A DNA stretch of 64,000 nt from a virus. Below are positions 5,043 to 19,762 of this stretch, one piece after another (the first letter of the stretch is position 1; each line of letters starts with the position of its first letter). The position numbers and the translations under genes were made by a program. The notes under the pieces are model-generated. The model did not search any database and had not been told where the DNA came from. It saw only the letters and a program-made list of their open reading frames with translations. Location: positions 1 through 64,000 of the IMG/VR virus record IMGVR_UViG_3300024329_000007. One strand, written 5' to 3'.

Positions 5043-5615
5043 TTAAGGTTCTATGCTAAATGAACCACTTTGTTTACCGGTAGGTTCCGTAGACCAAAGA
5101 TTAATTGCAATAGCCTTTCTAACACCACTAGTAACATTACTTACTCTATGATAATATTTACCAGCATCGAAAATAACTAATCTATTAGGCCTTGCATATA
5201 TTCTTTCTGGATCTTTGTCTGGGCCATGTGAATAAATTTCTAGCATTCCACCTTCAAATAAGTCTTGCTCCGGATAATAAACTGTGCCGATGTCTGGTGT
5301 TGACAATTCGCCAGTAGCTTTCATTAATTCTTCATCTTTATCAATATGTAGCTCAAGCTTATTATTAAAACCATCATCTACTGAAGACTGAATGCCAGTC
5401 CAATACTCAAAACCTTCTATTGTAAATATTTCATTTATAGGACAGTTTTCTGCCCAAATATATTCTATAAGTTCTTTTTTAACTGAGTTTGTCGGACTAT
5501 TCCACCAACCATCCCACCAGTAATATTCACCTGGATCATTAAAAAAATTAGAGTCATTTTGGATCTTATCAAGAAGTACTCTATCCTTTACAAAGTTATC
5601 TATTACTATTATCAT
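5043..5615 (-). CDS. 2OG-Fe(II) oxygenase (prolyl-4-hydroxylase-like)
   Basis: HxD (LHIDKD), GG-x-L, NRLVIFD, distal H (YHRV) and 2OG-binding R (RKAIAINLW). Confidence 0.85.
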   Translation of the reverse strand: MIIVIDNFVKDRVLLDKIQNDSNFFNDPGEYYWWDGWWNSPTNSVKKELIEYIWAENCPINEIFTIEGFEYWTGIQSSVDDGFNNKLELHIDKDEELMKATGELSTPDIGTVYYPEQDLFEGGMLEIYSHGPDKDPERIYARPNRLVIFDAGKYYHRVSNVTSGVRKAIAINLWSTEPTGKQSGSFSIEP

Positions 5616-7373: not shown

Positions 7374-8582
7374 TTAAAATAATGCCGAAGCATAGATTAA
7401 GTTTGTATCTAGTGTTTGTAAGCCACATGCTACAAGAACTCTATTAAGAGGATCTATCATTGACTTTTCAAATTGAGTATCATAGTCAACTTGTGGTGCA
7501 AACTCATAAGGGTGGTCTCCAGGCATATAAGCGTAAACCTCACTAATTGGACTTTTACAATTATAGATTTTAAGCTTTTCACCATTACCGATTACTTTAT
7601 ACTTTGTCTTATATTTTGCATTAGTATTTAATAAGTAATTATAGTAACCTGCTGCTTTTACATTTGCTGGACATTTTAGACCTACTTGTAATTCAATCTG
7701 ATCATCTACAATATACTTTTCAATATTATTAGTTCTACGATTAAAACTAATATCGTCTATATTAGCCATTTGAAACTCCTTCTTAGTCTCTTTCATAAAA
7801 TTAACTAGAGTTTGCAAATCTTCAGCAGTCGGAGTACTTCCACGCTTAAAAATAATCTTTAATGCTTCAACAAGCTTTTCTCTAACAAATTTAGGAGTTG
7901 AAGATTGGATTGTATCAAAGCCGATAGTCTTAACTTTCTTAAGAGGCTTGTGTCTATCGGTCACTTCTAATTTATCATCCCATGCAAGATTCTGAATATA
8001 CTTTTTCTTTGCTAACCAGATTCCATTATAAGCTAATGATTCTAACTCAAACATTAAGTAATTGTCAGTATTTCTAGCGTCTGCATATTTTTCCATGCAC
8101 TTAGTAATATAATCTTTAAGCCTAAATGCATAAAGCTCTAATATAAAAACATCAATTGCAACTTTTTTATCTTCATCCGGCCATACAATAGATTCATATA
8201 GATCTTGAAATTGAATATAACAAGAATCTGTATCAATGTAAATTACTGCAGGCTTTTCAATCTTACCTTTAACTTTAAATCCAAAATGCTCATGTACTTT
8301 TGTATCTTTATGCCAGAACTCATTTACATATTTGTTTAATATGTCTTCTGAATAAAGAATAGCATTTTTACTCTGTTTAGTAATAGACTCTGCAATATTA
8401 ATATCAAAAAAGTGAAACCATTTATTTCCAAATGCACCGTAAATAGAGTTAAGTGTTAATTTAACAGCCTGTTCGTATGCGGTATACTTAGCCGAAAGCT
8501 GCTCATAATGTTTTATGAGCAGCTCAGCTTCAGTTTGTGAAATTTGATCTATTGGTTTATTTTCTAATTCTTTGATATCCAT
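7374..8582 (-). CDS. 43B: Family B DNA polymerase, C-terminal subunit (gp43B: fingers/palm/thumb)
   Basis: Motif B KLTLNSIYG, motif C YIDTDS, KKKY, TIQSSTP. Confidence 0.93.
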   Translation of the reverse strand: MDIKELENKPIDQISQTEAELLIKHYEQLSAKYTAYEQAVKLTLNSIYGAFGNKWFHFFDINIAESITKQSKNAILYSEDILNKYVNEFWHKDTKVHEHFGFKVKGKIEKPAVIYIDTDSCYIQFQDLYESIVWPDEDKKVAIDVFILELYAFRLKDYITKCMEKYADARNTDNYLMFELESLAYNGIWLAKKKYIQNLAWDDKLEVTDRHKPLKKVKTIGFDTIQSSTPKFVREKLVEALKIIFKRGSTPTAEDLQTLVNFMKETKKEFQMANIDDISFNRRTNNIEKYIVDDQIELQVGLKCPANVKAAGYYNYLLNTNAKYKTKYKVIGNGEKLKIYNCKSPISEVYAYMPGDHPYEFAPQVDYDTQFEKSMIDPLNRVLVACGLQTLDTNLIYASALF

Positions 8583-8585
8583 TAA

Positions 8586-9329
8586 TTACGCAGTTTGGCA
8601 AGTTGATATTGTTAATAATGTATCTGAGTTGTTTGATTGGAATACAACTTTAGAATCAGAAACATATACCGTTTGCTCTTCACGATCTAATAGATTTAAG
8701 TATTTTTTGTAAACTGTTACTTTACCAGTTCCATTTGCTGCAGGATTAACTACAACTTTAAATGATTTACCATCTACATTTACACCAGCAACATCTGATT
8801 TAATATTAAAAGTTTCTTCTTTATCTAGAGAGAATAAGTTCTTTACTTTTCCTAACATGTGAGTATCTAGTGCAAAATCAAATTTACCATTATCTCTAGC
8901 AAATATTGCTTCAACTTGTGTTTCAGTAAGATCTTTAAATCCTAATGTCGGCTCTGAACAAGATAATGTAATTTCTAGTTCGTCATTAAAGATGCGGAAT
9001 GTAGATGCTACTAGATCTTCATCGTTCTCAATAAATTCAATTTCGCCTTTAATAGCATCATGGTCAAAGTGCTTAATAGCATCAATAACTTTGTTTCCTT
9101 CAAAGAATGCGATTTTCATTTCTTTATCTGTATCAGGCCATTCGCTGATTTGGAAGATTTCAGAAACGTCTACGCTGTGACTTTTAACAGCATCTCGTTG
9201 TGGTAAATAAACTACAGATTTTACTCTGCCCTCGGCTACTTTCATATAAATGAAAGAGTCAATTAGCTTGACGCGGTTTATAAACTCTGTCAAAGCGTGT
9301 TGGTCAATACGATCAATTTTTAACTTCAT
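8586..9329 (-). CDS. 45: Sliding clamp (T4 gp45/PCNA-like)
   Basis: 247-aa alpha/beta protein of clamp size immediately upstream of the polymerase subunit, with a beta-rich C-terminus; assignment mainly from context. Confidence 0.65.
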   Translation of the reverse strand: MKLKIDRIDQHALTEFINRVKLIDSFIYMKVAEGRVKSVVYLPQRDAVKSHSVDVSEIFQISEWPDTDKEMKIAFFEGNKVIDAIKHFDHDAIKGEIEFIENDEDLVASTFRIFNDELEITLSCSEPTLGFKDLTETQVEAIFARDNGKFDFALDTHMLGKVKNLFSLDKEETFNIKSDVAGVNVDGKSFKVVVNPAANGTGKVTVYKKYLNLLDREEQTVYVSDSKVVFQSNNSDTLLTISTCQTA

Positions 9330-9355
9330 GTTTTTTGTTTTTTTAAATATAGTTA

Positions 9356-9382
9356 TTATATGTTGAAAACTAGATTAGTTTC
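9356..9382 (-). promoter_or_regulatory. GAAAC-N17-TATAA promoter (middle-type) upstream of clamp and gp43B
   Basis: TGAAACTAATCTAGTTTTCAACATATAAT; the same motif recurs upstream of five other replication/early genes. Confidence 0.6.
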
Positions 9383-9397
9383 AGTAAGATTTGTATG

Positions 9398-9483
9398 AAA
9401 AAAGCGAAGCCAGGAAGTAGCGAACCCCTGGCTTCTATCCGAGAACTATCCCGGTCCTAAAATCCGATCGTATTTCAGATCGG
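9398..9483 (-). ncRNA. Three-hairpin structured element after nrdA, ending in an intrinsic terminator-like hairpin
   Basis: Stems CCGAUC/GAUCGG (9464-9483), CCGGGA-UAGU-UCUCGG (9439-9454) and GAAGCCAGG/CCUGGCUUC (9406-9435), followed by GC and U6; GC-rich island in AT-rich DNA. Confidence 0.55.
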
Positions 9484-9490
9484 CGTTTTT

Positions 9491-11311
9491 TTATCCGTCA
9501 CATGATAAACAGTCTGGATCTGTTGCGGCCATTGCAATATCGCCTCTTAGTACAGATTCTGTTCTCATATAATAGAGTGTTTTAACTCCTTGCTTATAAG
9601 CTTCTAAATGAACTTGATTAATAAATTTAGGAGTAGCTTCAGAAGGGAATGCTAAATTTAAACTTACAGATTGGTCAACATATTGTTGTCTAACACCTGC
9701 TTGTTTTACAAGCTCTAATTGATTTACTTCTTTAAAGGTTTTAAATATATTTTTTAAAGACGTATAATTTCCTTTATCCATATCCGGAATTCTATCAAAA
9801 GCCTTTAGCTTTAATGGTTTATTATCTTTTGAAATAGGATCTCCAATTCTAACTTTATATTCATCAATAAAATCAAGGCCTAAAATGCTACCACCATCTG
9901 CTAGAATTTGATCCCAAACAGATTTAGTATTCTTACCAATTAAATCTAGAGCGTTTTCTAGTGTTGGGTTCTTTCTAATAAAAGTACCCTTTGCAGTTTG
10001 TTCTGTGAACACGTTAGCCGCCCAAGGCTCAATCCCTGCAGATACATTACCAGCAAGTTTTGAGTTGCTTACAGTTGGTGCTACGGCTCTAAGGTGAGTG
10101 TTTCTCATTCCAGTTCCTACGCACCATAAAGGCTCTCCCATTTCTAAAGCCATATCTCTAGAAGCCTTTTCACTTTCAGTCTTTAATTGACTAAAAATCT
10201 TTCTAGTCTCAAATTGAGCAGTTAAGCCCTCAAAAGGAATATTGTTATTCTGTAAATAAGTATGCCATCCAAGAACTCCAAGTCCTAATGCTCTACCTTT
10301 TTCTGCAGATCTTACTGAATTCTCAAAGCCTCTCATAAATTTAGCCTTTTGGATAAATTCACTTAAGACTCCATCAAGAAACCAAGTTGCTGTATAGACT
10401 AAATCAGTATCTTTCCACTCTTGATATCTTGCTAAGTTAACAGAAGATAGACAACAAACAAAAGAATGAGATTCATCTGTGTGTAAAGTAATTTCAGAAC
10501 AGATGTTAGTCATATAGACTTTTAATCCGTTTTGCTTATAAGCATCTGGATTTGCTCTGTTGACATTACCCTTAAACATTATATAAGGCTCTCCAGTAGA
10601 TCTACGTTTTCTAAGCACTGCGGCCCATCTTTTTCTAGACTCTTTATCGCCAGCTTCTACCTTTTGCATAAATCCATCCGGTACTATTACACATTGATGC
10701 ATATTAAGAGATTGTCTATTTACATCTCCTTTAGGCTCTCTAATTTCTAGCCATTCCCAGAAATCATCATGTTCAATATCAATATTAACTGACGCAGCTC
10801 CACGTCTGACAGACCCCTGGTTAGTAGCAAGGATTGTAGAGTCATATATTTTGCAGAACGGTACGACTCCGTCGCTTGTTCCATTACCTGTGATTTTTGC
10901 ACCTGCTGGTCTAATTTGATTTATTCCAATCCCAACGCCACCGCCATGTTTAGCAAGTAACATCATCTCTAGGTTTTTTTCACCTATATCGTGAATTGAA
11001 TCTGCAACATCAATACCGAAACAAGAAATAGGAAGTCCTCTTTCTAATCCAGTGTTTGATAATACAGGAGAGGCTAGGTTTAACCAGCCCTTCCATATAT
11101 AATCAAAGAACTTGCTTGCCATTTCCGGTTTTTCAAGTCTTTTAGCAACAGTAGTTGCAACTCTCCAATAAGCATCTTTAGGTGTTTCACTATCCATAAG
11201 ATATCCATTGCTTATTGTTTTAACATAAATTTCTGTATTTGCCCAAGTTGGAAAGTCAACTCCTAACTCCCAACCTAGGTCTTCTCCGTGGTTTATTTCT
11301 TTTTCTGTCAT
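9491..11311 (-). CDS. nrdA: Class I ribonucleotide reductase alpha subunit, no N-terminal ATP cone
   Basis: SPVLSN, ISCF, GGGVG, RRGA, NICSEI, APTVSNS, TLYY, C-terminal CLSCDG. Confidence 0.97.
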   Translation of the reverse strand: MTEKEINHGEDLGWELGVDFPTWANTEIYVKTISNGYLMDSETPKDAYWRVATTVAKRLEKPEMASKFFDYIWKGWLNLASPVLSNTGLERGLPISCFGIDVADSIHDIGEKNLEMMLLAKHGGGVGIGINQIRPAGAKITGNGTSDGVVPFCKIYDSTILATNQGSVRRGAASVNIDIEHDDFWEWLEIREPKGDVNRQSLNMHQCVIVPDGFMQKVEAGDKESRKRWAAVLRKRRSTGEPYIMFKGNVNRANPDAYKQNGLKVYMTNICSEITLHTDESHSFVCCLSSVNLARYQEWKDTDLVYTATWFLDGVLSEFIQKAKFMRGFENSVRSAEKGRALGLGVLGWHTYLQNNNIPFEGLTAQFETRKIFSQLKTESEKASRDMALEMGEPLWCVGTGMRNTHLRAVAPTVSNSKLAGNVSAGIEPWAANVFTEQTAKGTFIRKNPTLENALDLIGKNTKSVWDQILADGGSILGLDFIDEYKVRIGDPISKDNKPLKLKAFDRIPDMDKGNYTSLKNIFKTFKEVNQLELVKQAGVRQQYVDQSVSLNLAFPSEATPKFINQVHLEAYKQGVKTLYYMRTESVLRGDIAMAATDPDCLSCDG

Positions 11312-11320
11312 ATTATTTTA

Positions 11321-12322
11321 TTAATCGAATAAATCGTCTTCGTCCCAGTTTTCATCTTCTCCAGCTTTAGCATAATCAGTAGGTCTGATTGCAAAAAAGT
11401 CTGTATGCGTGTGCCCTCCAGTTAAATGATAAAACCAATCTAATTCTGCAGCTAAATCCTCATCAAACTTAAATTCAGATTCATAGCCTAATTCTATTAG
11501 CTTTTCATTAGTTCTTTTAGTAATAAAGTGTTTTAAGCTTTCAGCCTTCATATTATCTAAATCGCCCATCTCAAACATTTTATCAATAAACTTGTGTTCC
11601 ATTTGACGCATCATATCTGCTGCTTGTAATACATCATGGTAAACTTCTTGTTTTAGTTCTGGATATTCTTGGCACATGTGTCTAAATAATTGGCAGCCCA
11701 TTTTAGAATGAAGTGATTCATCTCTAACTGACCATTTCATTTGCTGCCCAATACCTTTAAGTAAGTTTCTCATTTGGAATGAGTATAAAACTGCAAAAGA
11801 ACTATAGAGGCTTACTCCTTCTGCAAAAGCAGAAAAAATTGCTAAAGATCTTGCCACCTCTTTTCTTGCTGTTGGGTTTTCTGATAAATCCTTGTGTGTA
11901 TAATTTGCAGAAGTTGAAGTTAGTAACTCAAACTTTTCTGCAATTGCTGGCTCATGTAAGAATGCCGCAAAATCTTCTAGGCCTAATGTCTCATTTAAGT
12001 AAGAATACGCAGTTGCATGTATTGTTTCCTGAGAGCCGAACATCATTGCCATCTGTTTGATTTCATGTTTCGGGAACCATGTGGTTACATATTGTGTCCA
12101 ATAATCAGAAACTGCACATTCTGTTTGTGCAAATCCTAAAAGTATATTACCTACAATATTTTTTTCTGGTTCTGTTAATCTTTCGTTCCAATCTTTAACA
12201 TCTCCTTGCATGGAGATTTCAGTATGTAACCAAAATGCTTGTGCTTGTTTAAGCCAACCTTCTGTATAGTACTCTGGGTACTCAAATGGCTTATATTCTA
12301 TTCTTTCTTTAAATAATGACAT
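11321..12322 (-). CDS. nrdB: Class I ribonucleotide reductase beta subunit
   Basis: FW..E, ETIHATAYS, EGVSLYSSF, RDESLH, DFF. Confidence 0.97.
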   Translation of the reverse strand: MSLFKERIEYKPFEYPEYYTEGWLKQAQAFWLHTEISMQGDVKDWNERLTEPEKNIVGNILLGFAQTECAVSDYWTQYVTTWFPKHEIKQMAMMFGSQETIHATAYSYLNETLGLEDFAAFLHEPAIAEKFELLTSTSANYTHKDLSENPTARKEVARSLAIFSAFAEGVSLYSSFAVLYSFQMRNLLKGIGQQMKWSVRDESLHSKMGCQLFRHMCQEYPELKQEVYHDVLQAADMMRQMEHKFIDKMFEMGDLDNMKAESLKHFITKRTNEKLIELGYESEFKFDEDLAAELDWFYHLTGGHTHTDFFAIRPTDYAKAGEDENWDEDDLFD

Positions 12323-12415
12323 ATTTGCTAATGATTTTTTTAATATTCAGTTAAGGCTAAAAAAGGTCTGCTTTTAGGTAGACCCACTTTAATCAATAAC
12401 ATAAGTTGTTTAATA

Positions 12416-12470
12416 AAATTACTAGCAGCGCTGCTTAGTGTTTTATATATCTTCATGCTGCTGGTAATTT
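12416..12470 (-). promoter_or_regulatory. Long inverted repeat enclosing a GATATATA late-type promoter upstream of nrdB
   Basis: AAATTACCAGCAGC...GCTGCTAGTAATTT (13/14 bp); GATATATA at 12444-12451 lies in the loop. Confidence 0.55.
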
Positions 12471-12476
12471 CTAAAA

Positions 12477-13877
12477 TTATACTTTAAATTTTTTTTTCAA
12501 TTCGTGTGCTTTTTCATAATAAGTATAAGAAGTCTTCTTATATTCCTTACGTTGTCCATATAGATCGCTTAGGATCAATTTTAGCATTGAATCTTCTTTT
12601 TTGTAGACAGCTCCGTTTTCACAAACAATAATATCTTTTTCTTTTCTTTTTTGTTTAACTTCCATTTCTGGAATCATTTCTATAAAAGAATCAGGAGAGA
12701 TATTAAACTGCCTCATAACCGATGGATATAGAGAAGCAAAGTCAAATGCGCTAACCCCAGAGTAATATCCAACAATCGGTTGTTTAACAAAAGCACCCTC
12801 ATATTTAGTATCTTTTTTAGTATCGCGATCCCATTCTACTGCAATTTTTTTATTATCAGTAGCTAGTTTTCTAGCGATTAAAGATTCTGTAACAGCAACC
12901 GGAGAGGCTGCTTTATATAAAGGCATTCTTGTAATTGTTGCTAAAGTCAATAGAACTTCCATTGATCTTAGCTTTTCATCTATATAATATACAAGACATG
13001 AATCGACTACGTTATAATAGATATATTTTACAAAGTTATTTTCATAAAGTTCTTGTAGTCCACCTGTGTATTTAATTTTAGCAACATCAAGTACTGCGCC
13101 TGAAACAAAATCAAGTGAATTAGATTCTTTAACAGCAACTGATCTATCGTACTTATCATAAAGTTGCATGTAATCTAAAATACCCATGTGTAAAGGTCGA
13201 CCATCTTTTTTATCTAAAGAACCAGTAATTGCTACTTCAGTTAAATCAATCTGAAGACGTTTACATCTATTAACTATATATTGCCAATCATAATTGATAA
13301 AATTCCAGCCGGTCATCATAGGGAATTTAGGTAAAAACTTATGCAAGAATGTATATAGCATATTATACTCATCCTTAAACTTATAATAAGAGAATTCCCA
13401 GTCTTGGTCATAATCTTTAAAGTGTGCATTTGTATCGTCTTCTATCTTTTTAATTTCAGCTGGAGACATATCGTTTAATCCGAGAACAATAGCTTTACGT
13501 TCTGGCGTGATAATAGAGAATGATAGGATTCTAGATTTAGCTTCTTCTGGCTTTGGAAAACCATCTACAATTTCTGTTTCAATATCCACAAAATAAGTAC
13601 GTGGCATATTAAACTCATAGATCTCTTCTTTATCTTTTTCCGGAAGGCTATCCATGAAATAAAGTAGACTAAACTTATTAAATGATTTAGAAATGCTACG
13701 TTTTATAGAACGGCCATCCCAGTTTTTAAAGTTTTGATCTCGCCACTTGTCACTATCTTTAGCAATAGTCCAGTTTTGGAATTTGTCTACAGGGTATCTT
13801 TTAAATGAAACCTTACCCTCTTTGTTGTAATAAGACACGATAAGCTCGCGTTCTGTTTGTTCTATATCTAATAACAT
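12477..13877 (-). CDS. 43A: Family B DNA polymerase, N-terminal subunit (gp43A: 3'-5' exonuclease and motif A)
   Basis: Exo I DIET, Exo II GWNFINYD, Exo III YNVVD, YEGAFV, motif A DFASLYPS, NISP. Confidence 0.93.
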   Translation of the reverse strand: MLLDIEQTERELIVSYYNKEGKVSFKRYPVDKFQNWTIAKDSDKWRDQNFKNWDGRSIKRSISKSFNKFSLLYFMDSLPEKDKEEIYEFNMPRTYFVDIETEIVDGFPKPEEAKSRILSFSIITPERKAIVLGLNDMSPAEIKKIEDDTNAHFKDYDQDWEFSYYKFKDEYNMLYTFLHKFLPKFPMMTGWNFINYDWQYIVNRCKRLQIDLTEVAITGSLDKKDGRPLHMGILDYMQLYDKYDRSVAVKESNSLDFVSGAVLDVAKIKYTGGLQELYENNFVKYIYYNVVDSCLVYYIDEKLRSMEVLLTLATITRMPLYKAASPVAVTESLIARKLATDNKKIAVEWDRDTKKDTKYEGAFVKQPIVGYYSGVSAFDFASLYPSVMRQFNISPDSFIEMIPEMEVKQKRKEKDIIVCENGAVYKKEDSMLKLILSDLYGQRKEYKKTSYTYYEKAHELKKKFKV

Positions 13878-14344
13878 TAATAGCCTCTTTTTTGACGTTG
13901 AACATTCTCTTCTGCTTTCGCAAAATAGTAATTGTAAGCGGTCTTTGCGTCAAGGCCTATGGACGCGGCATAATTAATAAAGAAGTGTAGAATATCTACC
14001 CATTCCATATATAGTTCTTTTTTATCATCTTCAGATAAATCAGAAACTTTCTTGTTATCAAATGTTGAGAAGTCTTTCTTCCAGTATTTCCATACTGCAT
14101 TTCCACTTCCGTCTTTAATTCCACCAAGAGCATCTGTCATTTCGTGAATTTCATCAATTACAGCATGAGTATTACAGTGCCAGAAATTCATTACATCTCG
14201 CAATGACATTTCTTCAAAGTTAAAACCATAGGTTTTTTCTTGCATGTTTTTTTGATGAGACATAATGTCTTCTAAGTGTGTTGTTGATTCTGCGTAGAAG
14301 TCTTTTACTTCAAGGTCTTTACATTCGTTGTCTATGTTCGCCAT
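13877..14344 (-). CDS. All-alpha dimeric dUTPase/dCTPase (T4 gp56/MazG-like)
   Basis: DEIHEMTD, WKYWK, EWVDILHFF, KxxENxxRQxxGY. Confidence 0.85.
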   Translation of the reverse strand: MANIDNECKDLEVKDFYAESTTHLEDIMSHQKNMQEKTYGFNFEEMSLRDVMNFWHCNTHAVIDEIHEMTDALGGIKDGSGNAVWKYWKKDFSTFDNKKVSDLSEDDKKELYMEWVDILHFFINYAASIGLDAKTAYNYYFAKAEENVQRQKRGY

Positions 14345-14365
14345 GTGATTTTTTTTATAATTGTT

Positions 14366-14390
14366 TTATAGATAGTATTCCATTAGTTTC
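14366..14390 (-). promoter_or_regulatory. GAAAC-N15-TATAA promoter upstream of dUTPase and gp43A
   Basis: TGAAACTAATGGAATACTATCTATAAAA. Confidence 0.5.
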
Positions 14391-14394
14391 AATA

Positions 14395-14889
14395 CTAGTC
14401 CCACCATTTTTGAATATTATGTTCTATTAAATCCCACGCCAGTTTGTGGGCTCTTTTTTGTTTTATTCTAGAATTAAGTTGCTCTGCACTCTTTTCTTCC
14501 GATATTATTAATAGCTCAGAATCCGTATAATTATGCTCATATTCTTCAACCATTTCATAATATGGATTACCATTTGCATCAGTTTCTTTAGATTCTATAA
14601 ATCTAAAATCAGAAGGGCCATATTTTTCTTTAATAATATCCGTATATTCCATGGCATAATCTTCTTCATAAACTTTTTCTAACAACTCAACTACAGTTCT
14701 AATTCTTTTAGCATCAGAAAGAGACGTAGTATGTCTGTTCTTTTTTTCAAGATAATCTGCAGTTCTTAAAAGTTGATACGAGAATAGATCAATAGCATAT
14801 CTATAATCAAAATCTGCACCATGCCATATTAATGGAAAGAATTCAAATATTCTTTTTATCTGTCTGTATTTTCTTTTTATGTACCGCAT
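14395..14889 (-). CDS. Hypothetical protein
   Basis: 164-aa ORF coupled to the PLP-enzyme gene; ends in WWD. Confidence 0.7.
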   Translation of the reverse strand: MRYIKRKYRQIKRIFEFFPLIWHGADFDYRYAIDLFSYQLLRTADYLEKKNRHTTSLSDAKRIRTVVELLEKVYEEDYAMEYTDIIKEKYGPSDFRFIESKETDANGNPYYEMVEEYEHNYTDSELLIISEEKSAEQLNSRIKQKRAHKLAWDLIEHNIQKWWD

Positions 14890-15785
14890 TACATATCCAT
14901 TGTTTTAATCTCGCCCCACTCTCTTTCCGAGTCCATATTTATTTTTGTATCTAATAATTCTGGTTTAGGGTCACCGCCCACATTCCAGAACCAAGAACCT
15001 GGACTTCCATGTTTAGCCATAAATTCCCATGCCTTAGCATCATAATTAAGAGCTGATGGAAATGGTGGTATATTATCTGGGTGTACGTTTTGAGTAAATG
15101 CCTTTGGATGAGACCATAGTTTTGCCCTACCTCTCTCTCCAGTTTTAATATTTCTAGAGACTGCAACTGCATTAAAATTAGCATCTGGCCAGGCTATTTG
15201 TAAAGATCTAGATAGAACGCCAGTAGATATTGCTGACCATACTTCTTCCGGATATCCATGTTTCTCTGCAAGATCGTATGCAACCTTGACAGCAGCTGCT
15301 GTAACAAGCTCATGACGAAGTCCAAGTGGAATAAATGTTGCATTATTTTCTTGGGCCCATTTTTTAGCATGTGCATTTAATACTGGCATTGCAGCAATTC
15401 TTTTAAATTTAAGTTCAGCACCTCGTTCAGCACAAATAGCCTGATGATCTGAAATCTCTTTTTGACTTGGGCAAAATAGAACTAATTTTTTATTATATTT
15501 TTTTGCTAGGTATCCAAGTGAAATACCAGCGAAACCATATCTTGGTTGTACATATACCAAAGTATCTGTCGGTGCTTTCTGAACTAAAATATCTCCAAAC
15601 CTACATTTAGATCCAAAGCCCATCATATCTTCCCTAACAACTTTAAAGCCATCGTGGTCTATTAGTTGTGGTGAATCAAAAGGATCTTCCCAATCACCTG
15701 CTAAATCTAACCATGCCTGTCTATTTGGCATCATTAGATTTAGATCCTGGTTCATTAAACTTTTTGTGTGGTTATTATGCGCCAT
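14889..15785 (-). CDS. Fold-type II PLP-dependent enzyme; likely decarboxylase/lyase acting on a modified DNA base
   Basis: VVRED...GSKCR (Schiff-base Lys), GFAGISL, GAEL, IPLGL, AISTGVL phosphate loop, YDAKAW, WNV; adjacent to the transferase-like gene. Confidence 0.8.
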   Translation of the reverse strand: MAHNNHTKSLMNQDLNLMMPNRQAWLDLAGDWEDPFDSPQLIDHDGFKVVREDMMGFGSKCRFGDILVQKAPTDTLVYVQPRYGFAGISLGYLAKKYNKKLVLFCPSQKEISDHQAICAERGAELKFKRIAAMPVLNAHAKKWAQENNATFIPLGLRHELVTAAAVKVAYDLAEKHGYPEEVWSAISTGVLSRSLQIAWPDANFNAVAVSRNIKTGERGRAKLWSHPKAFTQNVHPDNIPPFPSALNYDAKAWEFMAKHGSPGSWFWNVGGDPKPELLDTKINMDSEREWGEIKTMDM

Positions 15786-16992
15786 AAAATTCTTTTACTT
15801 TTTGTTTATATTCTTCTGGTTTAATTCCAGCCGCATCTAAAACCTTAAGGTCAGATGGAAATGAAGTCATACCATTAAATGTTTCTAATAGACCAAGGTC
15901 TAACATAGCCCTTTGTCTTCCTGATGGATGGTCTTTAATTGTAGATGAGTTCCATAAAGTGTCCATGTTAATATGTGCATAATCAGCACCTGGCCTTAGA
16001 TAGTTTTCAATCCATCTAATAAAGTCACAGGCTACATCCTCAGCATTATAAGGTAGACTACCAGTATCTTCATAGATCTTAGTCATAACTGCATCCAAGA
16101 ACTCTTCAGATTTCTTACCTTTCTTTTCTACAGGATCTGCAAGATAACCAATACATTCTACTGCATTAGTACCATAATAGAACATTGATTCTCTATTCAT
16201 AAATTCTGGGTACCAATCACATACATCTGCAATAACTGCAGCATACTGGAATCTATAAGCTCTTAATCCATTTGCAGCATTCCAATCAAACATCCATTGG
16301 CCAAGCTCTCTTAAATCCTTCTTACCACCTTCTCTTAAAAAGTTTGCCATATCTCTTGCCATTCTCGGTGCAAACTCACATAAGAAATAATCGCCACCTT
16401 TTTTATAAACATATTCTGGTTCTGTAAAGTTATCCATTCCTACAAATAAATCCTCATTCCCGGAGGGTTTTGGTGGCTTAGGAAATGCTGGAAACTGATA
16501 GCCAACTGAAGTATAAAAAGAAGTTGGATGGTGTTTCACCTTTTCACACATATCTTCAATAGTGTCACAATCATATAAATCAAATAAGATTGTGTTATGA
16601 TATCCGGATGGTTTAGTTGCATAATTAATTGCAGAGCCACAAACTCTATGGAGAATAAAAATATAGAGCCATTCTTCTAATCCAAAAACTTCTTGCCTTC
16701 CAGTCCAATTCTTTGCAACCTCTTCTCTTTGGGGGTAAATTTTACCAGCTTGCATGTGTTTCCAATAAGGATGTTCTGGGGCCCAACCATAAAAACAATC
16801 ATTTATGATCTGACTAAAACCTGCATACTTGCGCTCGACAACATCATATAATTGAATCTGTTCCATAAGAGGATCTTGCATGCCACTCTCATCATGTGGA
16901 GTCATACCAAGGTTTGAAAGCTCTTGTTGCTTTTTAGCAAGAGCAAAATACCTTAAAAACTCATCGTAATATTTTGTTGTTGTTATCTGCAT
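15775..16992 (-). CDS. Amino acid:DNA transferase-like protein (aGPT-Pplase superfamily, DNA-glycosylase-like helical fold)
   Basis: Motif order YDVVER, LHR, FQYAAVIAD, YGTNAVECI, AEDVACDFIRW parallels aGPT-Pplase1 (FTNVxR, FxAYQxxxD, GPGA, xNxxCEFxK); PLP-enzyme neighbour matches known thymidine-hypermodification loci. Confidence 0.6.
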   Translation of the reverse strand: MQITTTKYYDEFLRYFALAKKQQELSNLGMTPHDESGMQDPLMEQIQLYDVVERKYAGFSQIINDCFYGWAPEHPYWKHMQAGKIYPQREEVAKNWTGRQEVFGLEEWLYIFILHRVCGSAINYATKPSGYHNTILFDLYDCDTIEDMCEKVKHHPTSFYTSVGYQFPAFPKPPKPSGNEDLFVGMDNFTEPEYVYKKGGDYFLCEFAPRMARDMANFLREGGKKDLRELGQWMFDWNAANGLRAYRFQYAAVIADVCDWYPEFMNRESMFYYGTNAVECIGYLADPVEKKGKKSEEFLDAVMTKIYEDTGSLPYNAEDVACDFIRWIENYLRPGADYAHINMDTLWNSSTIKDHPSGRQRAMLDLGLLETFNGMTSFPSDLKVLDAAGIKPEEYKQKVKEFYGA

Positions 16993-17144
16993 TAATCTTT
17001 AATTAATTCCCATGTTAATGCATCTCTATTTCTCTGATACTGATCCATAGACCAATTAAGATCTGCTGTTGCTATCTCTAAAATATAGCTTGCATCTGGT
17101 GCATTGTGTGGTGTAATTCTAATTCTGTAGTCTATTGCTTTCAT
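16992..17144 (-). CDS. Small hypothetical protein, 50 aa (not in the ORF track)
   Basis: MKAIDYRIRITPHNAPDASYILEIATADLNWSMDQYQRNRDALTWELIKD*; TAATG stop/start overlap with the downstream gene. Confidence 0.7.
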   Translation of the reverse strand: MKAIDYRIRITPHNAPDASYILEIATADLNWSMDQYQRNRDALTWELIKD

Positions 17145-17146
17145 AT

Positions 17147-18217
17147 TTAAAATAGCGCTGTTTGAATAGTTGCGACTTCTAATTTTTTATTAGGTTCATT
17201 GTTAATTAAATCCCATCTATAGAATTCTCTAGCCAAGTGTACTGATTTAGGTTTTTCCATAACATCAAAACTTAATTCGCCTAGTGCATTTTTATATGCA
17301 TCTGAATGTTGCCATGTAGACCAACCATTACGATCACACATTGAAACTATCATCTCATTCATAAGATTTACCAGATTAGTTCTCTCTTGCCAAGAGCCAG
17401 CAAATGGTGTTCCTTTATAATAACCAGTCTTTGGTAGCTTGCGAGATTCATTCTCAATAGGCAATGCTTGTATAACTTCTATAGTTTTTATACCTGAATC
17501 AATAAGCGCTTGCTCATACTGAGCCATCATCTTAGTTAGGGCCGCACTGGGATCTGACTGTCGCATTAAATGATGTCTTATGTCGATATTACCAAGGTAG
17601 ATCCTAAGATCAGTGGTCCATGGGTAAACATACTCTGCGAGTCCACGTTTTAGGGTCCCGAATAAAGTTAAACCATCATTACGATTTACCATATACCCAG
17701 GAGTATACATACTAAAAGAATGACTATCACCAAAACAGAGTTTATCTGTTTTTTCAATATGATCTACTCTATGAATAAAATCACTACAAATTTTAGTAGC
17801 CATTTCTATTTTATCTTCTAGAGTTTTAAATAGATCAGATCCGGTCTTAAGTCTTTTAGTTATAAGCTCACCAATATCTGGCATATCGTGGTGCATACTG
17901 TACATTCTTACTCCACAAAATAATCTATTTAGTTGATGGTATAAATCATCATTTGCACCTCCAAAAATATTAAAGGTGCCTTTAAATTCCATACCATGAT
18001 CTAATATGATTCTGTCATATTTAGTCCAGTCTTCACTAACGCTAGTAATTACTGTCACATCTTTATATCCAGCAGTTCTTAATTGATTTGCAAGCATAAA
18101 AGGCCAAGCACTTTTATGCGAACTTAACTTATCTGAAAACTTACCAACTAAAATTGCAATTCCAATCTTAATATCAGTGTGTGGTTCTAATTCTGTGAAG
18201 TACTTAAATTCCTGCAT
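17147..18217 (-). CDS. Two-domain protein: N-terminal domain resembling the T4 beta-glucosyltransferase N-domain fused to an SGNH/GDSL hydrolase-acyltransferase domain (probable start MQEF at 18217)
   Basis: SGNH blocks FGDSH, G, GNID, SVH; N-terminal KIGIAILVG...YDRIIL...FNIFGG...MYSMHHDMP. Confidence 0.6.
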   Translation of the reverse strand: MQEFKYFTELEPHTDIKIGIAILVGKFSDKLSSHKSAWPFMLANQLRTAGYKDVTVITSVSEDWTKYDRIILDHGMEFKGTFNIFGGANDDLYHQLNRLFCGVRMYSMHHDMPDIGELITKRLKTGSDLFKTLEDKIEMATKICSDFIHRVDHIEKTDKLCFGDSHSFSMYTPGYMVNRNDGLTLFGTLKRGLAEYVYPWTTDLRIYLGNIDIRHHLMRQSDPSAALTKMMAQYEQALIDSGIKTIEVIQALPIENESRKLPKTGYYKGTPFAGSWQERTNLVNLMNEMIVSMCDRNGWSTWQHSDAYKNALGELSFDVMEKPKSVHLAREFYRWDLINNEPNKKLEVATIQTALF

Positions 18218-18521
18218 CTGCGTCGGTTGTATTGATTGGTTTTTCAGTTTCGCCATACCCATATTTTTTAATATAGTTATCTAGGCCGCCAATATATGCA
18301 ACAGCATCAAGAAGGTTATCTTCTTTATAATTATAAGAATGTCTACTTAATTTAAGTGCGACTAACGCAGCATACATGTCAGCTCCGGTAAATTCTTTGC
18401 CAGTCATACCTGAGCAAACCATTGCAGCTCGACGCATACCTTCTTCAAAAGGGCCATACATGCGTTCTTTCTCTTCTGATCTATGATTAATAATCTTGTC
18501 AGCTTCGTTTAATATATTCAT
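18204..18521 (-). CDS. DUF6378-like all-alpha nucleotide pyrophosphohydrolase (probable start MNIL at 18521)
   Basis: ILNEA..II...R...YG.F, LKLSR, EDNLLDAVAY; the longer start in the ORF track would run through a promoter and a terminator. Confidence 0.7.
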   Translation of the reverse strand: MNILNEADKIINHRSEEKERMYGPFEEGMRRAAMVCSGMTGKEFTGADMYAALVALKLSRHSYNYKEDNLLDAVAYIGGLDNYIKKYGYGETEKPINTTDADAGI

Positions 18522-18537
18522 GTGATTTACTTTAGTG

Positions 18538-18564
18538 TTATATGTGTAATTGCTAGTTTGTTTA
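18538..18564 (-). promoter_or_regulatory. TAAAC-N17-TATAA promoter heading the base-modification cluster
   Basis: TAAACAAACTAGCAATTACACATATAAC, directly after a terminator. Confidence 0.5.
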
Positions 18565-18577
18565 GATTTAAACCAAT

Positions 18578-18603
18578 AAAAAAGGCCAGTCTTTCGACTG
18601 GCC
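18578..18603 (-). terminator. Intrinsic terminator
   Basis: GGCCAGTC-GAAA-GACTGGCC followed by T6. Confidence 0.9.
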
Positions 18604-18628
18604 AATTTAGGAAGTAGAGTTTCAGATC

Positions 18629-19762
18629 TTAATTCAATAAGGCTCCGACTTGTGCTCTAGGATCTAGTTGGTTTGTTTTAAATGGGTTTGGAACTTGATT
18701 TCCAAGGTTCCAAGATTTACCCAACATATTACCAGACTTAATCATTAGTTCAGTAGAGTCTTTGTCAGTCATTGCAAACGCAAGTTGTTCTGGGGCATGT
18801 GTTGCCACGTGAGTCATTCCGTTTACTAGAGACCAAATTGATTGGTTTGTATGTGCATTTTTTAATTCATCTGTTGTGAATTCTGTAGGATTTTGATTGT
18901 TCTTAATGTAAGCTGAACGGTTTTCGCTAAGTGGAATCCAATTATCAGCAGCATCTCCAACGTGACTTTTAATAGTGCTATGTGCTCTTTGCATTTCAAA
19001 TAGAGATGCTGGAGTGTTCATTGCATTATTTACTGTGTTTGCAAAATCATTAGGAACAAATCCAGTCTTACGCAAATCAGACATGTGTTGAAAAAACTTT
19101 TCCATAGAATCTTTACTTAAATTATTAAGAGAGTAAGATTCTTTTGCCATTGGAGTTGAAAGTCCATTTGAACACCATAGTCGATTAATATAAGGCATAA
19201 CTTGAATTCCGTTGCTTGGGCTATTTGTTAGCGTTAATCCAGATTTAAAAACCTCATCAGCAACTCCGAATTCAGCATTAGGGTTATATGCATTAATAGT
19301 TACTAAACCTTTATTAGCATCAACGCCCCAGTTTGTAACTTCAAATCCATGTTGATCTATAATTTGATCTGCAAGATTTATAAACCTTGAATGACTAATA
19401 AGCCCAGTTGCTGTTTTTGAAAAACCTAATACTTTTTTAGTAGTAGGTGATACAATTAATGTAATCTCGTTTAATTGAGATGCCATTGCGTTTTTCATTT
19501 GATTAACAAATGATGCTTTAGCTTCAGGAGAGAAAAGATTATCAAACTTTTTAGCAAATGTTTGACTCATTCCAATTAGCTTAATTAGACTCTTAAATGC
19601 ATCTTTAGTAATCTCTAGGCGTTTACCTTTGATTTCAATAGTTGTGTCATTAACAAGAGTAATTTCTCTAACTGCAATAGTTTTACGAATTGCTTGTGAG
19701 TTTAAAGTTTCCGCTTTACGGCTTTCAATTACTGAATTGGATAGTGTTGTTACTGTTGGCAT
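18629..19762 (-). CDS. DUF932/DUF945-like phage protein
   Basis: GLTLTNS...G...RLWCSNG motif and C-terminal W.LVN..T. Confidence 0.65.
   Translation of the reverse strand: MPTVTTLSNSVIESRKAETLNSQAIRKTIAVREITLVNDTTIEIKGKRLEITKDAFKSLIKLIGMSQTFAKKFDNLFSPEAKASFVNQMKNAMASQLNEITLIVSPTTKKVLGFSKTATGLISHSRFINLADQIIDQHGFEVTNWGVDANKGLVTINAYNPNAEFGVADEVFKSGLTLTNSPSNGIQVMPYINRLWCSNGLSTPMAKESYSLNNLSKDSMEKFFQHMSDLRKTGFVPNDFANTVNNAMNTPASLFEMQRAHSTIKSHVGDAADNWIPLSENRSAYIKNNQNPTEFTTDELKNAHTNQSIWSLVNGMTHVATHAPEQLAFAMTDKDSTELMIKSGNMLGKSWNLGNQVPNPFKTNQLDPRAQVGALLN

What the first reader, a model, noticed from the sequence alone, without database searches (positions are those of the whole stretch)
13877..18564. 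Putative DNA base-hypermodification operon with an unusual gene set
A promoter- and terminator-bounded cluster directly upstream of the polymerase encodes a DUF6378-like pyrophosphohydrolase, a BGT-N/SGNH fusion, a 50-aa ORF, an aGPT-Pplase-like transferase, a fold-type II PLP enzyme, a hypothetical protein and a dUTPase/dCTPase. Established: in ViI- and M6-type phages a 5-hmdU DNA kinase activates 5-hmdU, an amino acid:DNA transferase adds Ser or Gly, and a PLP enzyme decarboxylates it. Here no P-loop 5-hmdU kinase or dNMP hydroxymethylase is visible in the window, and the transferase is divergent, so the final base may be new.
Basis: partly seen in the sequence, partly recalled or inferred. 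Interest (0 to 1): 0.82.

Follow-up and report, generated by a model that had tools for sequence, protein, structure and literature searches.

The report
Kinase-less hydroxymethylcytosine DNA hypermodification module
An abundant uncultured marine phage carries a conserved three-enzyme set, next to its DNA polymerase, that most likely decorates hydroxymethylcytosine (not thymine) in its DNA with an amino-acid-derived group, using a chemistry that lacks the kinase of all known pathways of this kind.

Summary
The 405-aa protein has the fold of the solved amino-acid:DNA transferase PUGT and a matching E-x-x-x-C motif. It is missed by every Pfam model tried. The 298-aa protein belongs to the PHROG family seeded by the proven decarboxylase M6 gp52 and keeps its lysine. 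The 371-aa protein is a T4 beta-glucosyltransferase N-domain joined to an intact SGNH domain. The 155-aa protein is a T4 gp56 dCTPase homologue.

The interpretation needs one large correction. 556 IMG/VR contigs carry the 405-aa family, and the trio (371, 405, 298) recurs in them. In some phages the 371 and 405 proteins are fused into one. In 13 related records the only divergent thymidylate-synthase-like gene has Asp at the T4 gp42 D179 position. Ten of these are 50-62% identical to T4 gp42, and most lie 0.5-2 kb upstream of the transferase. No 5-hmdU kinase was found in five large relatives, three of them near-complete.

The target is therefore most likely 5-hydroxymethylcytosine, and the BGT-N/SGNH enzyme probably takes the kinase's place. 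The final base and that enzyme's chemistry are inferred only. The window's own 80-kb record is about 27% of a genome and holds no hydroxymethylase. New variant of a known kind; high interest.

The parts
18584..18603 (-). Intrinsic terminator hairpin (8-bp stem, 6 GC pairs, T-run) after the upstream 377-aa gene. It marks the 5' boundary of the cluster's transcription unit.
   Evidence: RNA-library contigs of four seawater runs stop at about 18614 on one side and at about 18500-18520 on the other. This is a weak hint only.
18204..18521 (-). DUF6378 protein (105 aa from the ATG at 18521; the longest ORF starts at a TTG at 18605, inside the terminator). Function unknown.
   Evidence: Pfam DUF6378, E 3e-10. 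No PDB match. Linked to the module only in close relatives (16 of 80 loci).
17147..18262 (-). 371-aa two-domain enzyme. The N-domain (about residues 31-137) is homologous to the N-terminal domain of T4 beta-glucosyltransferase. The C-domain (about 172-358) is an SGNH/GDSL fold with intact GDSH (178-181), GN (224-225) and H342.
   Evidence: Model pLDDT 85. SGNH fold: Z 12.4, rmsd 3.8 A, 169 aligned. hhalign against the BGT family: probability 94.9%, E 4.5e-8, with the NFFGG motif and D100 aligned. Sub-threshold Pfam PF09198 hits fall inside homologous ORFs of relatives. More than 960 homologues exist. Natural fusions to the 405-aa family exist.
16992..17144 (-). 50-aa ORF packed between the two enzymes. 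No homologue was found in 80 related loci, so its status as a gene is open.
15775..16992 (-). 405-aa divergent member of the ADDT / HMUDK-helical (HhH-glycosylase-like) superfamily. It is the predicted DNA base transferase. Invariant residues include E318 and C322 (motif E-D-V-x-C-D).
   Evidence: Model pLDDT 93. PDB-wide search: top hit 8z2m PUGT, Z 9.1, rmsd 4.3 A, 213 aligned, followed by HhH-GPD glycosylases. BFVD hits to proteins named ADDT, Pplase1 and HMUDK_hel. Motif compared with PUGT E243/T244/C247. 139 cluster representatives. 556 IMG/VR contigs.
14889..15785 (-). 298-aa fold-type II PLP enzyme of the M6 gp52 family (PLP-dependent decarboxylases of DNA-bound amino acids). The predicted Schiff-base lysine is K60.
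   Evidence: phrog_7093, E 4.3e-40. M6 gp52 is the seed of that family, E 2e-159. K60 aligns with M6 K36 and is invariant in 47 sequences. Pfam PALP scores only 21 bits, below the cut-off.
14395..14889 (-). 164-aa hypothetical protein. It is not conserved in relatives, which carry other genes here (an ADDT paralogue, a GT2 glycosyltransferase, a UDP-galactopyranose mutase).
13877..14344 (-). 155-aa homologue of T4 gp56 dCTPase/dUTPase (all-alpha NTP pyrophosphatase). Its stop overlaps the polymerase start.
   Evidence: BLASTP against T4 gp56: 31% identity over 108 aa, E 3e-20. phrog_173 and phrog_18650.
12477..13877 (-). N-terminal half (exonuclease plus the start of the polymerase domain) of a split family-B DNA polymerase, probably co-transcribed with the cluster. 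Context only.

Best explanation
The cluster is a post-replicative DNA hypermodification module of an abundant marine jumbo phage with T4-like replication genes. Its conserved core is three enzymes: the 371-aa BGT-N/SGNH protein, the 405-aa ADDT-like protein and the 298-aa PLP enzyme.

Proposed pathway:
1. A T4 gp42-type dCMP hydroxymethylase makes 5-hm-dCMP. It is seen in relatives and presumably lies in the unsequenced 73% of this genome. The gp56-like dCTPase in the cluster depletes dCTP, so 5-hmC enters the DNA (inferred by analogy with T4).
2. The 371-aa enzyme docks on 5-hmC in DNA through its beta-glucosyltransferase-like acceptor domain. Its SGNH Ser-His centre modifies the 5-CH2OH group, most likely by acylation. 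This would create the leaving group that a 5-hmdU DNA kinase supplies in known pathways (speculative step).
3. The 405-aa PUGT-fold enzyme flips the base out and replaces that group with an amino acid (inferred from fold, motif and gene fusion).
4. The PLP enzyme, a relative of M6 gp52, decarboxylates or otherwise trims the attached amino acid (inferred from family membership).

Relatives add further tailoring genes: a second ADDT-like paralogue, a GT2 glycosyltransferase and a UDP-galactopyranose mutase. The window therefore carries a minimal version of the module.
For: Shown here:
- Fold and motif of the 405-aa protein.
- PLP family membership and conserved lysine.
- BGT N-domain homology, including the column of BGT catalytic Asp100 (D in 16 and E in 2 of 20 sequences), and intact SGNH blocks.
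- gp56 homology.
- The trio is conserved down to about 30% identity of the transferase, in jumbo-phage and in T7-like contexts.
- Single-ORF fusions of BGT-N/SGNH with the ADDT-like domain.
- 13 of 13 divergent ThyA-like genes in related records have Asp at T4 gp42 D179. Ten are 50-62% identical to gp42, and most lie 0.5-2 kb upstream of the transferase.
- No 5-HMUDK (PF18748) in five large relatives, three of them 99-100% complete.
- No canonical beta-glucosyltransferase above the Pfam cut-off in the own record or 12 relatives.
- Aeromonas T4-like phages that carry a 371 homologue also carry a gp42-like gene.
- The stretch recurs nearly unchanged in at least 14 seawater metagenome runs, and contigs from six RNA libraries hold parts of it.
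Against: - The window's own record is about 27% of a genome and holds no hydroxymethylase, so the hmC link rests on relatives at 59-75% identity.
- One 100%-complete relative (G004) has the transferase but no ThyA-like gene, PLP enzyme or 371 homologue nearby.
- The 405-aa family is not matched by Pfam ADDT or aGPT-Pplase3.
- The E-x-x-x-C motif is shared with the kinase-associated HMUDK_hel domain. It therefore cannot tell a transferase from a base-flipping helper.
- Z 9 is only middling for an all-helical fold.
- Nothing shows what the SGNH domain transfers or hydrolyses, or in what order the enzymes act.
- No chemistry was measured.
Confidence: 0.55

Rival explanations
1. One reading: a thymidine (5-hmdU) hypermodification of the ViI/M6 type, whose dUMP hydroxymethylase and 5-hmdU DNA kinase lie in the unsequenced part of the genome.
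For: The closest characterised relatives of the transferase fold (PUGT, ADDT) and of the PLP enzyme (M6 gp52) all act on 5-hmU derivatives. The record is only 27% complete. gp56-type enzymes also hydrolyse dUTP.
Against: Five large relatives, three of them 99-100% complete, have no PF18748 kinase. All 13 ThyA-like genes of relatives are Asp-type and most are gp42 orthologues, whereas the M6 dUMP hydroxymethylase has Asn. The closest complete relative also keeps a canonical ThyA, so it makes dTMP. The BGT-like acceptor domain points to hmC.
Confidence: 0.15
2. The target is 5-hmC, but the roles differ from those proposed. The ADDT-like protein could be a non-catalytic base-flipping partner, as HMUDK_hel is for the kinase, serving the SGNH enzyme. 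The final mark would then be an acyl or aminoacyl ester of hmC trimmed by the PLP enzyme. Alternatively, the SGNH domain acts last, as an esterase.
For: The E-x-x-x-C motif also occurs in M6 gp55 HMUDK_hel. One family member and the C-terminus of Aeromonas 44RR ORF233c give weak HMUDK_hel hits. Close relatives carry two paralogues of this fold side by side. The fusions fit any tight partnership.
Against: The best solved-structure match is the transferase PUGT. The BGT-like N-domain already provides a DNA and base binding module, which makes a separate helper less necessary.
Confidence: 0.2
3. The genes are neighbours without a common pathway, or they act on free nucleotides or on cell-envelope substrates rather than on DNA.
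For: SGNH enzymes usually act on lipids and sugars. GT2 and UDP-galactopyranose mutase genes in relatives are typical envelope genes. No activity has been measured.
Against: Single-ORF fusions exist and the trio is conserved across distant phages. Two of the three proteins have DNA-base-binding folds. The PLP family occurs fused to or beside ParB/'DNA modification methylase' genes in cultured phages. The module sits among replication genes.
Confidence: 0.05

Closest known systems
Thymidine hypermodification pathways of phages M6, PaMx11 and ViI (5-HMUDK kinase, ADDT/aGPT-Pplase or PUGT, PLP decarboxylase; Lee et al. PMC8989533; Wen et al. PMC11472151)
   Same: A PUGT-fold enzyme with the E-x-x-x-C base-binding motif. 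A PLP enzyme of the M6 gp52 family with the same lysine. Placement beside replication genes. Modular, fusion-prone gene sets.
   Different: No 5-hmdU DNA kinase. The linked hydroxymethylase is the dCMP type, not the dUMP type. A BGT-N/SGNH enzyme sits, and is sometimes fused, where the kinase is fused in known systems. The transferase is outside the Pfam ADDT and aGPT-Pplase3 models. Metavirome surveys seeded with the kinase (PMC8989533, section read) could not have recovered it.
T-even phage 5-hmC pathway (gp42 dCMP hydroxymethylase, gp56 dCTPase, alpha/beta-glucosyltransferases)
   Same: A gp56 homologue in the cluster. gp42 orthologues next to the module in relatives. The N-domain of the 371-aa protein is homologous to the N-terminal domain of T4 BGT, including the Asp100 column.
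   Different: The UDP-glucose-binding half of BGT is replaced by an SGNH domain. No canonical glucosyltransferase is present. An amino-acid-transferase-like enzyme and a PLP enzyme are added.
SGNH-fold O-acyltransferases and esterases (e.g. peptidoglycan O-acetyltransferases PatB and OatA; sialate O-acetylesterases)
   Same: The fold (Z 9.9-12.4) and the conserved Ser/Gly-Asn/His blocks.
   Different: Fused to a DNA-glucosyltransferase-like acceptor domain and encoded in a DNA-modification cluster. I found no paper in the searchable library that links an SGNH enzyme to DNA base modification.
Aeromonas T4-like phage proteins 44RR2.8t ORF233c and phage 25 ORF225c (hypothetical)
   Same: 30-35% identical homologues of the 371-aa protein, in phages that also encode a gp42-like hydroxymethylase.
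   Different: In 44RR the domain is fused to a different C-terminal region, with only a weak HMUDK_hel hit. Phage 25 has a UDP-galactopyranose mutase beside it. No ADDT-like or PLP partner was detected.

Membership tests
ADDT / aGPT-Pplase (Pfam PF18724, PF18746; PUGT 8Z2M) | Match to the curated Pfam models | tested here: not met
   There was no ADDT or aGPT-Pplase3 hit for the protein, for 46 family members, for the own record or for 12 relatives, even at E 1-10. The accession of aGPT-Pplase clade 2 was not known to me, so it was tested only through the whole-Pfam scans.
ADDT / aGPT-Pplase (Pfam PF18724, PF18746; PUGT 8Z2M) | Two-helix-bundle, HhH-glycosylase-like fold of PUGT | tested here: met
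   8z2m_A is the top hit of 48,161 chains (Z 9.1, rmsd 4.3 A, 213 of 287 residues). It ties with DUF2419 and is followed only by HhH-GPD glycosylases. BFVD gives hits to proteins named ADDT, Pplase1 and HMUDK_hel, and a 57%-identical protein is named as ADDT-domain-containing. Z 9 is middling for a helical protein.
ADDT / aGPT-Pplase (Pfam PF18724, PF18746; PUGT 8Z2M) | Active-site Glu and Cys that bind and clamp the flipped pyrimidine (PUGT E243, T244, C247) | tested here: inconclusive
   E318 and C322 are invariant in 46 sequences, with the same spacing and at the matching place in the fold alignment range. The equivalence was not checked residue by residue in 3D. The motif also occurs in HMUDK_hel. 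The second position is Asp here and Thr in M6 and PUGT.
ADDT / aGPT-Pplase (Pfam PF18724, PF18746; PUGT 8Z2M) | Genomic partnership with a 5-hmdU DNA kinase and a dUMP hydroxymethylase | tested here: not met
   No PF18748 in five large relatives. The linked hydroxymethylases are Asp-type.
ADDT / aGPT-Pplase (Pfam PF18724, PF18746; PUGT 8Z2M) | Transfer of a free amino acid to activated 5-hydroxymethylpyrimidine in DNA | not testable with these tools
   This needs biochemistry.
M6 gp52 / ViI gp226 PLP-dependent decarboxylases of DNA-bound amino acids | Full-length homology to the family and the Schiff-base lysine | tested here: met
   phrog_7093, E 4.3e-40, covering residues 44-270. M6 gp52 is the seed of that family. 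K60 aligns with M6 K36 and is invariant in 47 sequences. The STG loop and the C-terminal YD-KAW...WN-G motif are shared. Pfam PALP scores only 21 bits against a cut-off of 35.
T4 beta-glucosyltransferase (Pfam PF09198) | N-terminal domain of T4 BGT with the NFFGG motif and catalytic Asp100 | tested here: met
   hhalign of the two family alignments gives probability 94.9%, E 4.5e-8, over 100 columns. N98, F100, G101 and G102 are invariant. The D126 column holds D or E in 18 of 20 sequences. PF09198 gives sub-threshold hits inside homologous ORFs.
T4 beta-glucosyltransferase (Pfam PF09198) | C-terminal UDP-glucose-binding Rossmann domain (GT-B fold) | tested here: not met
   Residues 172-358 are an SGNH fold instead. 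The protein is therefore not a glucosyltransferase.
SGNH/GDSL hydrolase-acyltransferase superfamily | The fold, plus block I Ser, block III Gly-Asn and block V His | tested here: met
   Z 12.4, rmsd 3.8 A, 169 aligned, and Foldseek probability 1.0. G178-D-S180-H, G224-N225 and H342 are invariant or nearly so. The classic D-x-x-H acid is absent, but E336 is invariant nearby.
T4 gp56 dCTPase/dUTPase | Sequence homology to gp56 | tested here: met
   31% identity over 108 aa, E 3e-20. Pfam dUTPase_2 scores 17.8 bits, below its cut-off of 22.9. Substrate preference was not testable.
T-even-type 5-hmC DNA (gp42 dCMP hydroxymethylase) | A ThyA homologue with Asp at the T4 D179 / E. coli ThyA N177 specificity position, encoded by the same phage | tested here: inconclusive
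   It is absent from the own 80-kb fragment. It is present with Asp in 13 of 13 cases in related records, including the closest complete relative G001.

The most novel reading that the evidence does not exclude
Abundant marine phages make a so far undescribed hypermodified cytosine. In this reading 5-hmC in DNA is activated without ATP by a DNA-glucosyltransferase-derived SGNH acyltransferase. An ADDT-like enzyme then exchanges the ester for an amino acid, and a PLP enzyme decarboxylates it, for example to an aminoethoxymethyl- or aminoalkyl-cytosine. Relatives extend the group with galactofuranose. This would be the first amino-acid-type hypermodification of cytosine and the first role of an SGNH enzyme in DNA chemistry.
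Probability: 0.3. Interest if true: 0.9.

Novelty: new variant of a known kind. Interest (0 to 1): 0.78.

Why it matters
All characterised amino-acid-type DNA hypermodifications sit on thymine and start with a 5-hmdU DNA kinase. Published metagenome surveys used that kinase as bait (PMC8989533), so they could not see this family.

Here a related enzyme pair is tied to the hydroxymethylcytosine route and to a new kind of partner enzyme. It occurs in hundreds of viral contigs from seawater. If confirmed, three things would follow:
- a new natural DNA base would be added;
- a second way to activate 5-hydroxymethylpyrimidines in DNA would be known;
- enzymes able to derivatise 5-hmC selectively would become available, which is of interest for epigenetic sequencing chemistry.

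It would also help explain how abundant marine phages evade restriction and CRISPR.

Tried and rejected
Searches that gave nothing:
- Pfam, NCBIfam and PDB sequence searches of the 405-, 371-, 164- and 50-aa proteins.
- tblastn of the 405-aa protein, and megablast of the region, against 50,697 cultured or deposited phage records.
- Foldseek of the 405-aa model against the PDB: no hit at E <= 0.001. Only the Foldseek-independent wide search found PUGT.
- The ESM Atlas on the N-domain of the 371-aa protein: no usable hit.
- A literature search for SGNH together with DNA hypermodification: nothing relevant.

Comparisons that were not significant:
- hhalign of the 405-aa family against the single sequences M6 gp51 (ADDT) and M6 gp55 (HMUDK_hel).
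- hhalign of the 371 family against the single T4 BGT sequence: only 19.6% probability. It became significant only with a BGT family alignment.
- DUF6378 against DUF3310, by BLAST. The idea that the DUF6378 protein is the missing kinase or a pyrophosphohydrolase could be neither supported nor excluded.
- The C-terminus of Aeromonas 44RR ORF233c and the phage 25 neighbour against the ADDT-like family.

Other points:
- PF18745 turned out to be an unrelated family (SNAD2), so one search was wasted.
- Sigma-70 promoter matches were not above chance.
The contexts of the fused forms were fetched with the search for related loci instead.
- In the RNA-library contigs, parts of the PLP and 164-aa genes had no cover in some runs. 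This is not evidence of silence.

Full report
**What is there**

The window is the first 64 kb of a 79,936-bp IMG/VR virus record that CheckV rates 27% complete. GC content is about 32% and nearly all genes lie on the minus strand. The finding covers seven tightly packed ORFs. They lie directly upstream of the N-terminal half of a split family-B DNA polymerase. Reading 5' to 3' on the minus strand, they are:
- a DUF6378 protein;
- a 371-aa protein;
- a 50-aa ORF;
- a 405-aa protein;
- a 298-aa protein;
- a 164-aa protein;
- a 155-aa protein.

**Boundaries**

A good intrinsic terminator (18584-18603) follows the upstream 377-aa gene. It overlaps the longest version of the DUF6378 ORF, so the ATG at 18521 is the likelier start.

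At the other end, the stop of the 155-aa gene overlaps the polymerase start codon. No terminator separates the cluster from the polymerase half. Only a weak hairpin follows that gene. Sigma-70-type promoter matches are not above chance.

Contigs from four seawater RNA libraries tile the cluster at 99% identity or more. In all four, they break between about 18520 and 18614, which is the terminator and start region. This is a weak hint that a separate transcript starts there.

**The 405-aa protein**

It has no Pfam, PHROG, NCBIfam or PDB sequence match. A search of 1.8 billion cluster representatives found 139 relatives. An alignment of 46 of them (A1) has invariant G119, S120, G130, N133, F248, D256, G274, E318 and C322.

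With that alignment AlphaFold gives a confident all-helical model (pLDDT 93.3). The structure searches gave the following.
- Viral predicted structures: the best hit is a 57%-identical protein that UniProt names as containing an amino-acid:DNA-transferase domain. Weaker hits are to proteins named ADDT, Pplase1 and 5-hmdU-kinase helical domain.
- All PDB representatives, without Foldseek: the top hit is 8z2m, the 5-phosphomethyl-dU glycinyltransferase PUGT of phage PaMx11 (Z 9.1, rmsd 4.3 A, 213 residues). It ties with DUF2419. Only HhH-GPD DNA glycosylases follow.

The PUGT paper reports that Glu243 and Thr244 hold a metal on O4 of the flipped thymine and that Cys247 clamps the base (PMC11472151). 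M6 gp51 has the same E-T-V-L-C motif. The family here has an invariant E318 and C322 in E-D-V-x-C-D, at the matching place in the fold.

Three limits apply.
- The Pfam ADDT and aGPT-Pplase3 models do not match this family at all.
- The motif is also present in the kinase-associated helical domain (M6 gp55, E-H-T-L-C).
- Z 9 is only middling for a helical protein.

**The 298-aa protein**

It scores below the Pfam PALP cut-off. It matches phrog_7093 over nearly its full length (E 4e-40). The seed of that family is M6 gp52 (E 2e-159). M6 gp52 was shown experimentally to decarboxylate a DNA-bound amino acid (PMC8989533). K60 aligns with the proposed Schiff-base lysine K36 of gp52 and is invariant in 47 sequences.

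In cultured Erythrobacter and Microcystis phages, this domain lies inside or next to genes annotated as ParB or 'DNA modification methylase'.

**The 371-aa protein**

It has more than 960 homologues at 58-95% identity. The model (pLDDT 85) has two domains.
- Residues 172-358 are an SGNH/GDSL fold (Z 12.4, rmsd 3.8 A, 169 aligned). GDSH 178-181, G224-N225 and H342 are intact.
- The N-domain matched the single T4 beta-glucosyltransferase sequence only weakly. I therefore built a BGT family alignment. The profile-profile comparison gives 94.9% probability and E 4.5e-8 over 100 columns, aligning residues 31-137 with BGT 1-115. The aligned columns include the invariant NFFGG motif and the Asp100 column.

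Asp100 is named as the catalytic residue of T4 BGT in bioRxiv 10.1101/2023.12.21.572611. That the N-terminal half of BGT binds DNA and the flipped hmC is my own knowledge, not tested here.

Independently, the curated Pfam BGT model gives sub-threshold hits (E 9e-5 to 9e-3) that fall exactly inside the homologous ORFs of four relatives. It finds no true glucosyltransferase in any of 13 records.

**The 155-aa protein**

It is a homologue of T4 gp56 dCTPase/dUTPase (31% identity, E 3e-20).

**Conservation and gene fusion**

556 IMG/VR contigs encode a relative of the 405-aa protein. Among the 36 loci with at least 3 kb on both sides, 31 carry the 371 family and 28 the PLP family. The DUF6378 gene, the gp56-like gene and the polymerase neighbourhood are shared only by the closest relatives. 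The 50- and 164-aa ORFs are shared by none.

Some phages encode the 371 and 405 families as one polypeptide. These are P0155 and P0166, with hhalign E 1e-70 and 1e-55 for the N-part, and a 786-aa ORF on a 225-kb contig.

The three genes also occur side by side where the transferase is only about 30% identical. One such contig also carries a T7-type RNA polymerase and an integrase. This is strong evidence that the three proteins act in one pathway. It also suggests that the 371-aa enzyme holds the place the kinase holds in the known fused systems described in PMC8989533.

**Which base**

The own record has no ThyA or ThyX homologue, but it is a fragment. I searched 22 related records.
- Thirteen of them hold one divergent ThyA-like gene (48-88 bits).
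- In ten of these, it is 50-62% identical to T4 gp42. In most it lies 0.5-2 kb upstream of the transferase.
- All 13 have Asp at the column of T4 gp42 D179.
- The dUMP hydroxymethylase of M6 and a canonical ThyA have Asn at that column.

It is established knowledge, not tested here, that this Asn/Asp switch sets dUMP versus dCMP specificity in thymidylate synthase and in T4 dCMP hydroxymethylase.

The closest complete relative is G001 (256 kb, terminal repeats, transferase 74% identical). It has such an Asp-type gene and also a canonical ThyA. None of five large relatives, three of them 99-100% complete, has a 5-hmdU DNA kinase.

Three lines of evidence thus point to 5-hydroxymethylcytosine and not 5-hydroxymethyluracil as the starting base:
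- the Asp-type, gp42-like hydroxymethylases;
- the gp56 homologue in the cluster;
- the BGT-like acceptor domain.

There is one exception. A complete 174-kb relative (G004) has the transferase next to an HhH-GPD protein. It has no ThyA-like gene and lacks the other two enzymes nearby.

**Variation of the module**

In the closest relatives the gene order is:
1. DUF6378
2. BGT-N/SGNH
3. ADDT-like
4. a 350-aa protein
5. PLP
6. in G001 only, a GT2 glycosyltransferase and a UDP-galactopyranose mutase
7. gp56-like
8. polymerase

The 350-aa family is present in 53 of 80 loci but absent from this record. It is a paralogue of the ADDT-like protein (hhalign 90.5%, E 1.4e-6, with an E-D-K-T-C motif; the ESM Atlas points to HMUDK_hel/ADDT clusters).

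More distant relatives have the order:
1. gp42-like
2. sometimes a UDG-like gene
3. ADDT-like
4. the 350-aa paralogue
5. PLP
6. BGT-N/SGNH
7. sometimes a DUF3310 protein

The window therefore carries a minimal three-enzyme version.

Aeromonas T4-like phages 44RR2.8t, 31 and 25 have 30-35% identical homologues of the 371-aa protein. 44RR2.8t and 25 were checked and also carry a gp42-like gene. In phage 25 a UDP-galactopyranose mutase lies beside the homologue.

**Mechanism**

Shown:
- the folds, motifs and family memberships;
- the linkage, the fusions and the type of hydroxymethylase in relatives.

Inferred:
- 5-hmC enters the DNA as it does in T4;
- the BGT-like domain presents the hmC hydroxymethyl group to the SGNH centre;
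- the PUGT-fold enzyme then substitutes an amino acid;
- the PLP enzyme trims it.

Speculative:
- the SGNH step is an O-acylation that supplies the leaving group in place of phosphate;
- the Asp at the second motif position (Thr in the thymine enzymes) reads the cytosine amino group.

The order of steps, the acyl donor, the amino acid and the final base are all unknown.

**Comparison and novelty**

The system works like the M6/PaMx11/ViI thymidine pathways. It fails their defining features of a 5-hmdU kinase, a dUMP hydroxymethylase and a Pfam ADDT match. It shares its entry steps with the T-even hmC pathway but has no glucosyltransferase.

I found no paper in the searchable library that describes an SGNH enzyme in DNA modification or an ADDT-like pathway on cytosine. 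The published metavirome survey used the kinase as bait.

I rate it a new variant of a known kind, with high interest. It is widespread: 556 viral contigs, and near-identical copies in at least 14 seawater metagenome runs. It is also directly testable on hmC-DNA.

**Limits**

There is no chemistry and no cultured host. The hmC link rests on relatives.

Noticed in passing
window 7374-13877: The family-B DNA polymerase is split into an N-half (12477-13877) and a C-half (7374-8582). Both ribonucleotide reductase subunits and a 247-aa gene lie between the halves. The nearest polymerase relatives are uncultured huge phages (47% identity to a 462-kb record) and Sphingomonas phage PAU.
   Followed up: partly
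window 5043-5615: A 190-aa 2OG-Fe(II) oxygenase of the prolyl-hydroxylase type (2OG-FeII_Oxy_3, not TET/JBP) lies among the replication genes. It was not tested for a role in base oxidation.
   Followed up: no
L011:9224-13423 (256-kb complete relative G001): The closest complete relative inserts three genes into the same cluster: a second ADDT-like paralogue (350 aa, E-D-K-T-C motif), a GT2 glycosyltransferase and a UDP-galactopyranose mutase. This suggests a galactofuranose-bearing version of the modification.
   Followed up: partly
L110:2379-4739 and L109:47-1756; proteins P0155, P0166: These are single ORFs of about 720-790 aa that fuse the BGT-N/SGNH protein to the ADDT-like domain. In L109 a PLP gene follows directly.
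   Followed up: yes
L112:1535-7964 and L111: The same three genes sit beside a tyrosine integrase and a T7-type single-subunit RNA polymerase. The module has therefore moved between very different phage types.
   Followed up: partly
L081:7481-8011: A 176-aa ORF with a weak UDG-superfamily match (E 5e-4) lies between the gp42-like gene and the transferase. It is found in 7 of 80 loci. HhH-GPD-like ORFs flank the module in 24 of 80 loci.
   Followed up: no
L002:6004-8391 (Aeromonas phage 44RR2.8t ORF233c) and L003:3764-7035 (phage 25): Cultured Aeromonas T4-like phages carry homologues of the BGT-N/SGNH protein. In 44RR it is fused to a 450-aa region with a weak HMUDK_hel hit and lies beside a sodium:solute symporter gene. 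In phage 25 it lies beside a UDP-galactopyranose mutase. Both phages have a gp42-like gene. They could serve as culturable test beds.
   Followed up: partly
L107 (Erythrobacter phage vB_EliS_R6L gp1) and L108:5986-6696 (Microcystis phage Mae-JY30): Homologues of the PLP enzyme (33-35% identity) are annotated as 'DNA modification methylase'. One is part of a large gp1 that runs across the record start. The other follows two ParB/sulfiredoxin genes.
   Followed up: no
window 18629-19762: The upstream 377-aa gene (phrog_1362, unknown function) is absent from close relatives. In four RNA libraries it lies on contigs whose word depth is about three times that of the contigs over the cluster. Contig depth is a poor measure of expression.
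   Followed up: no
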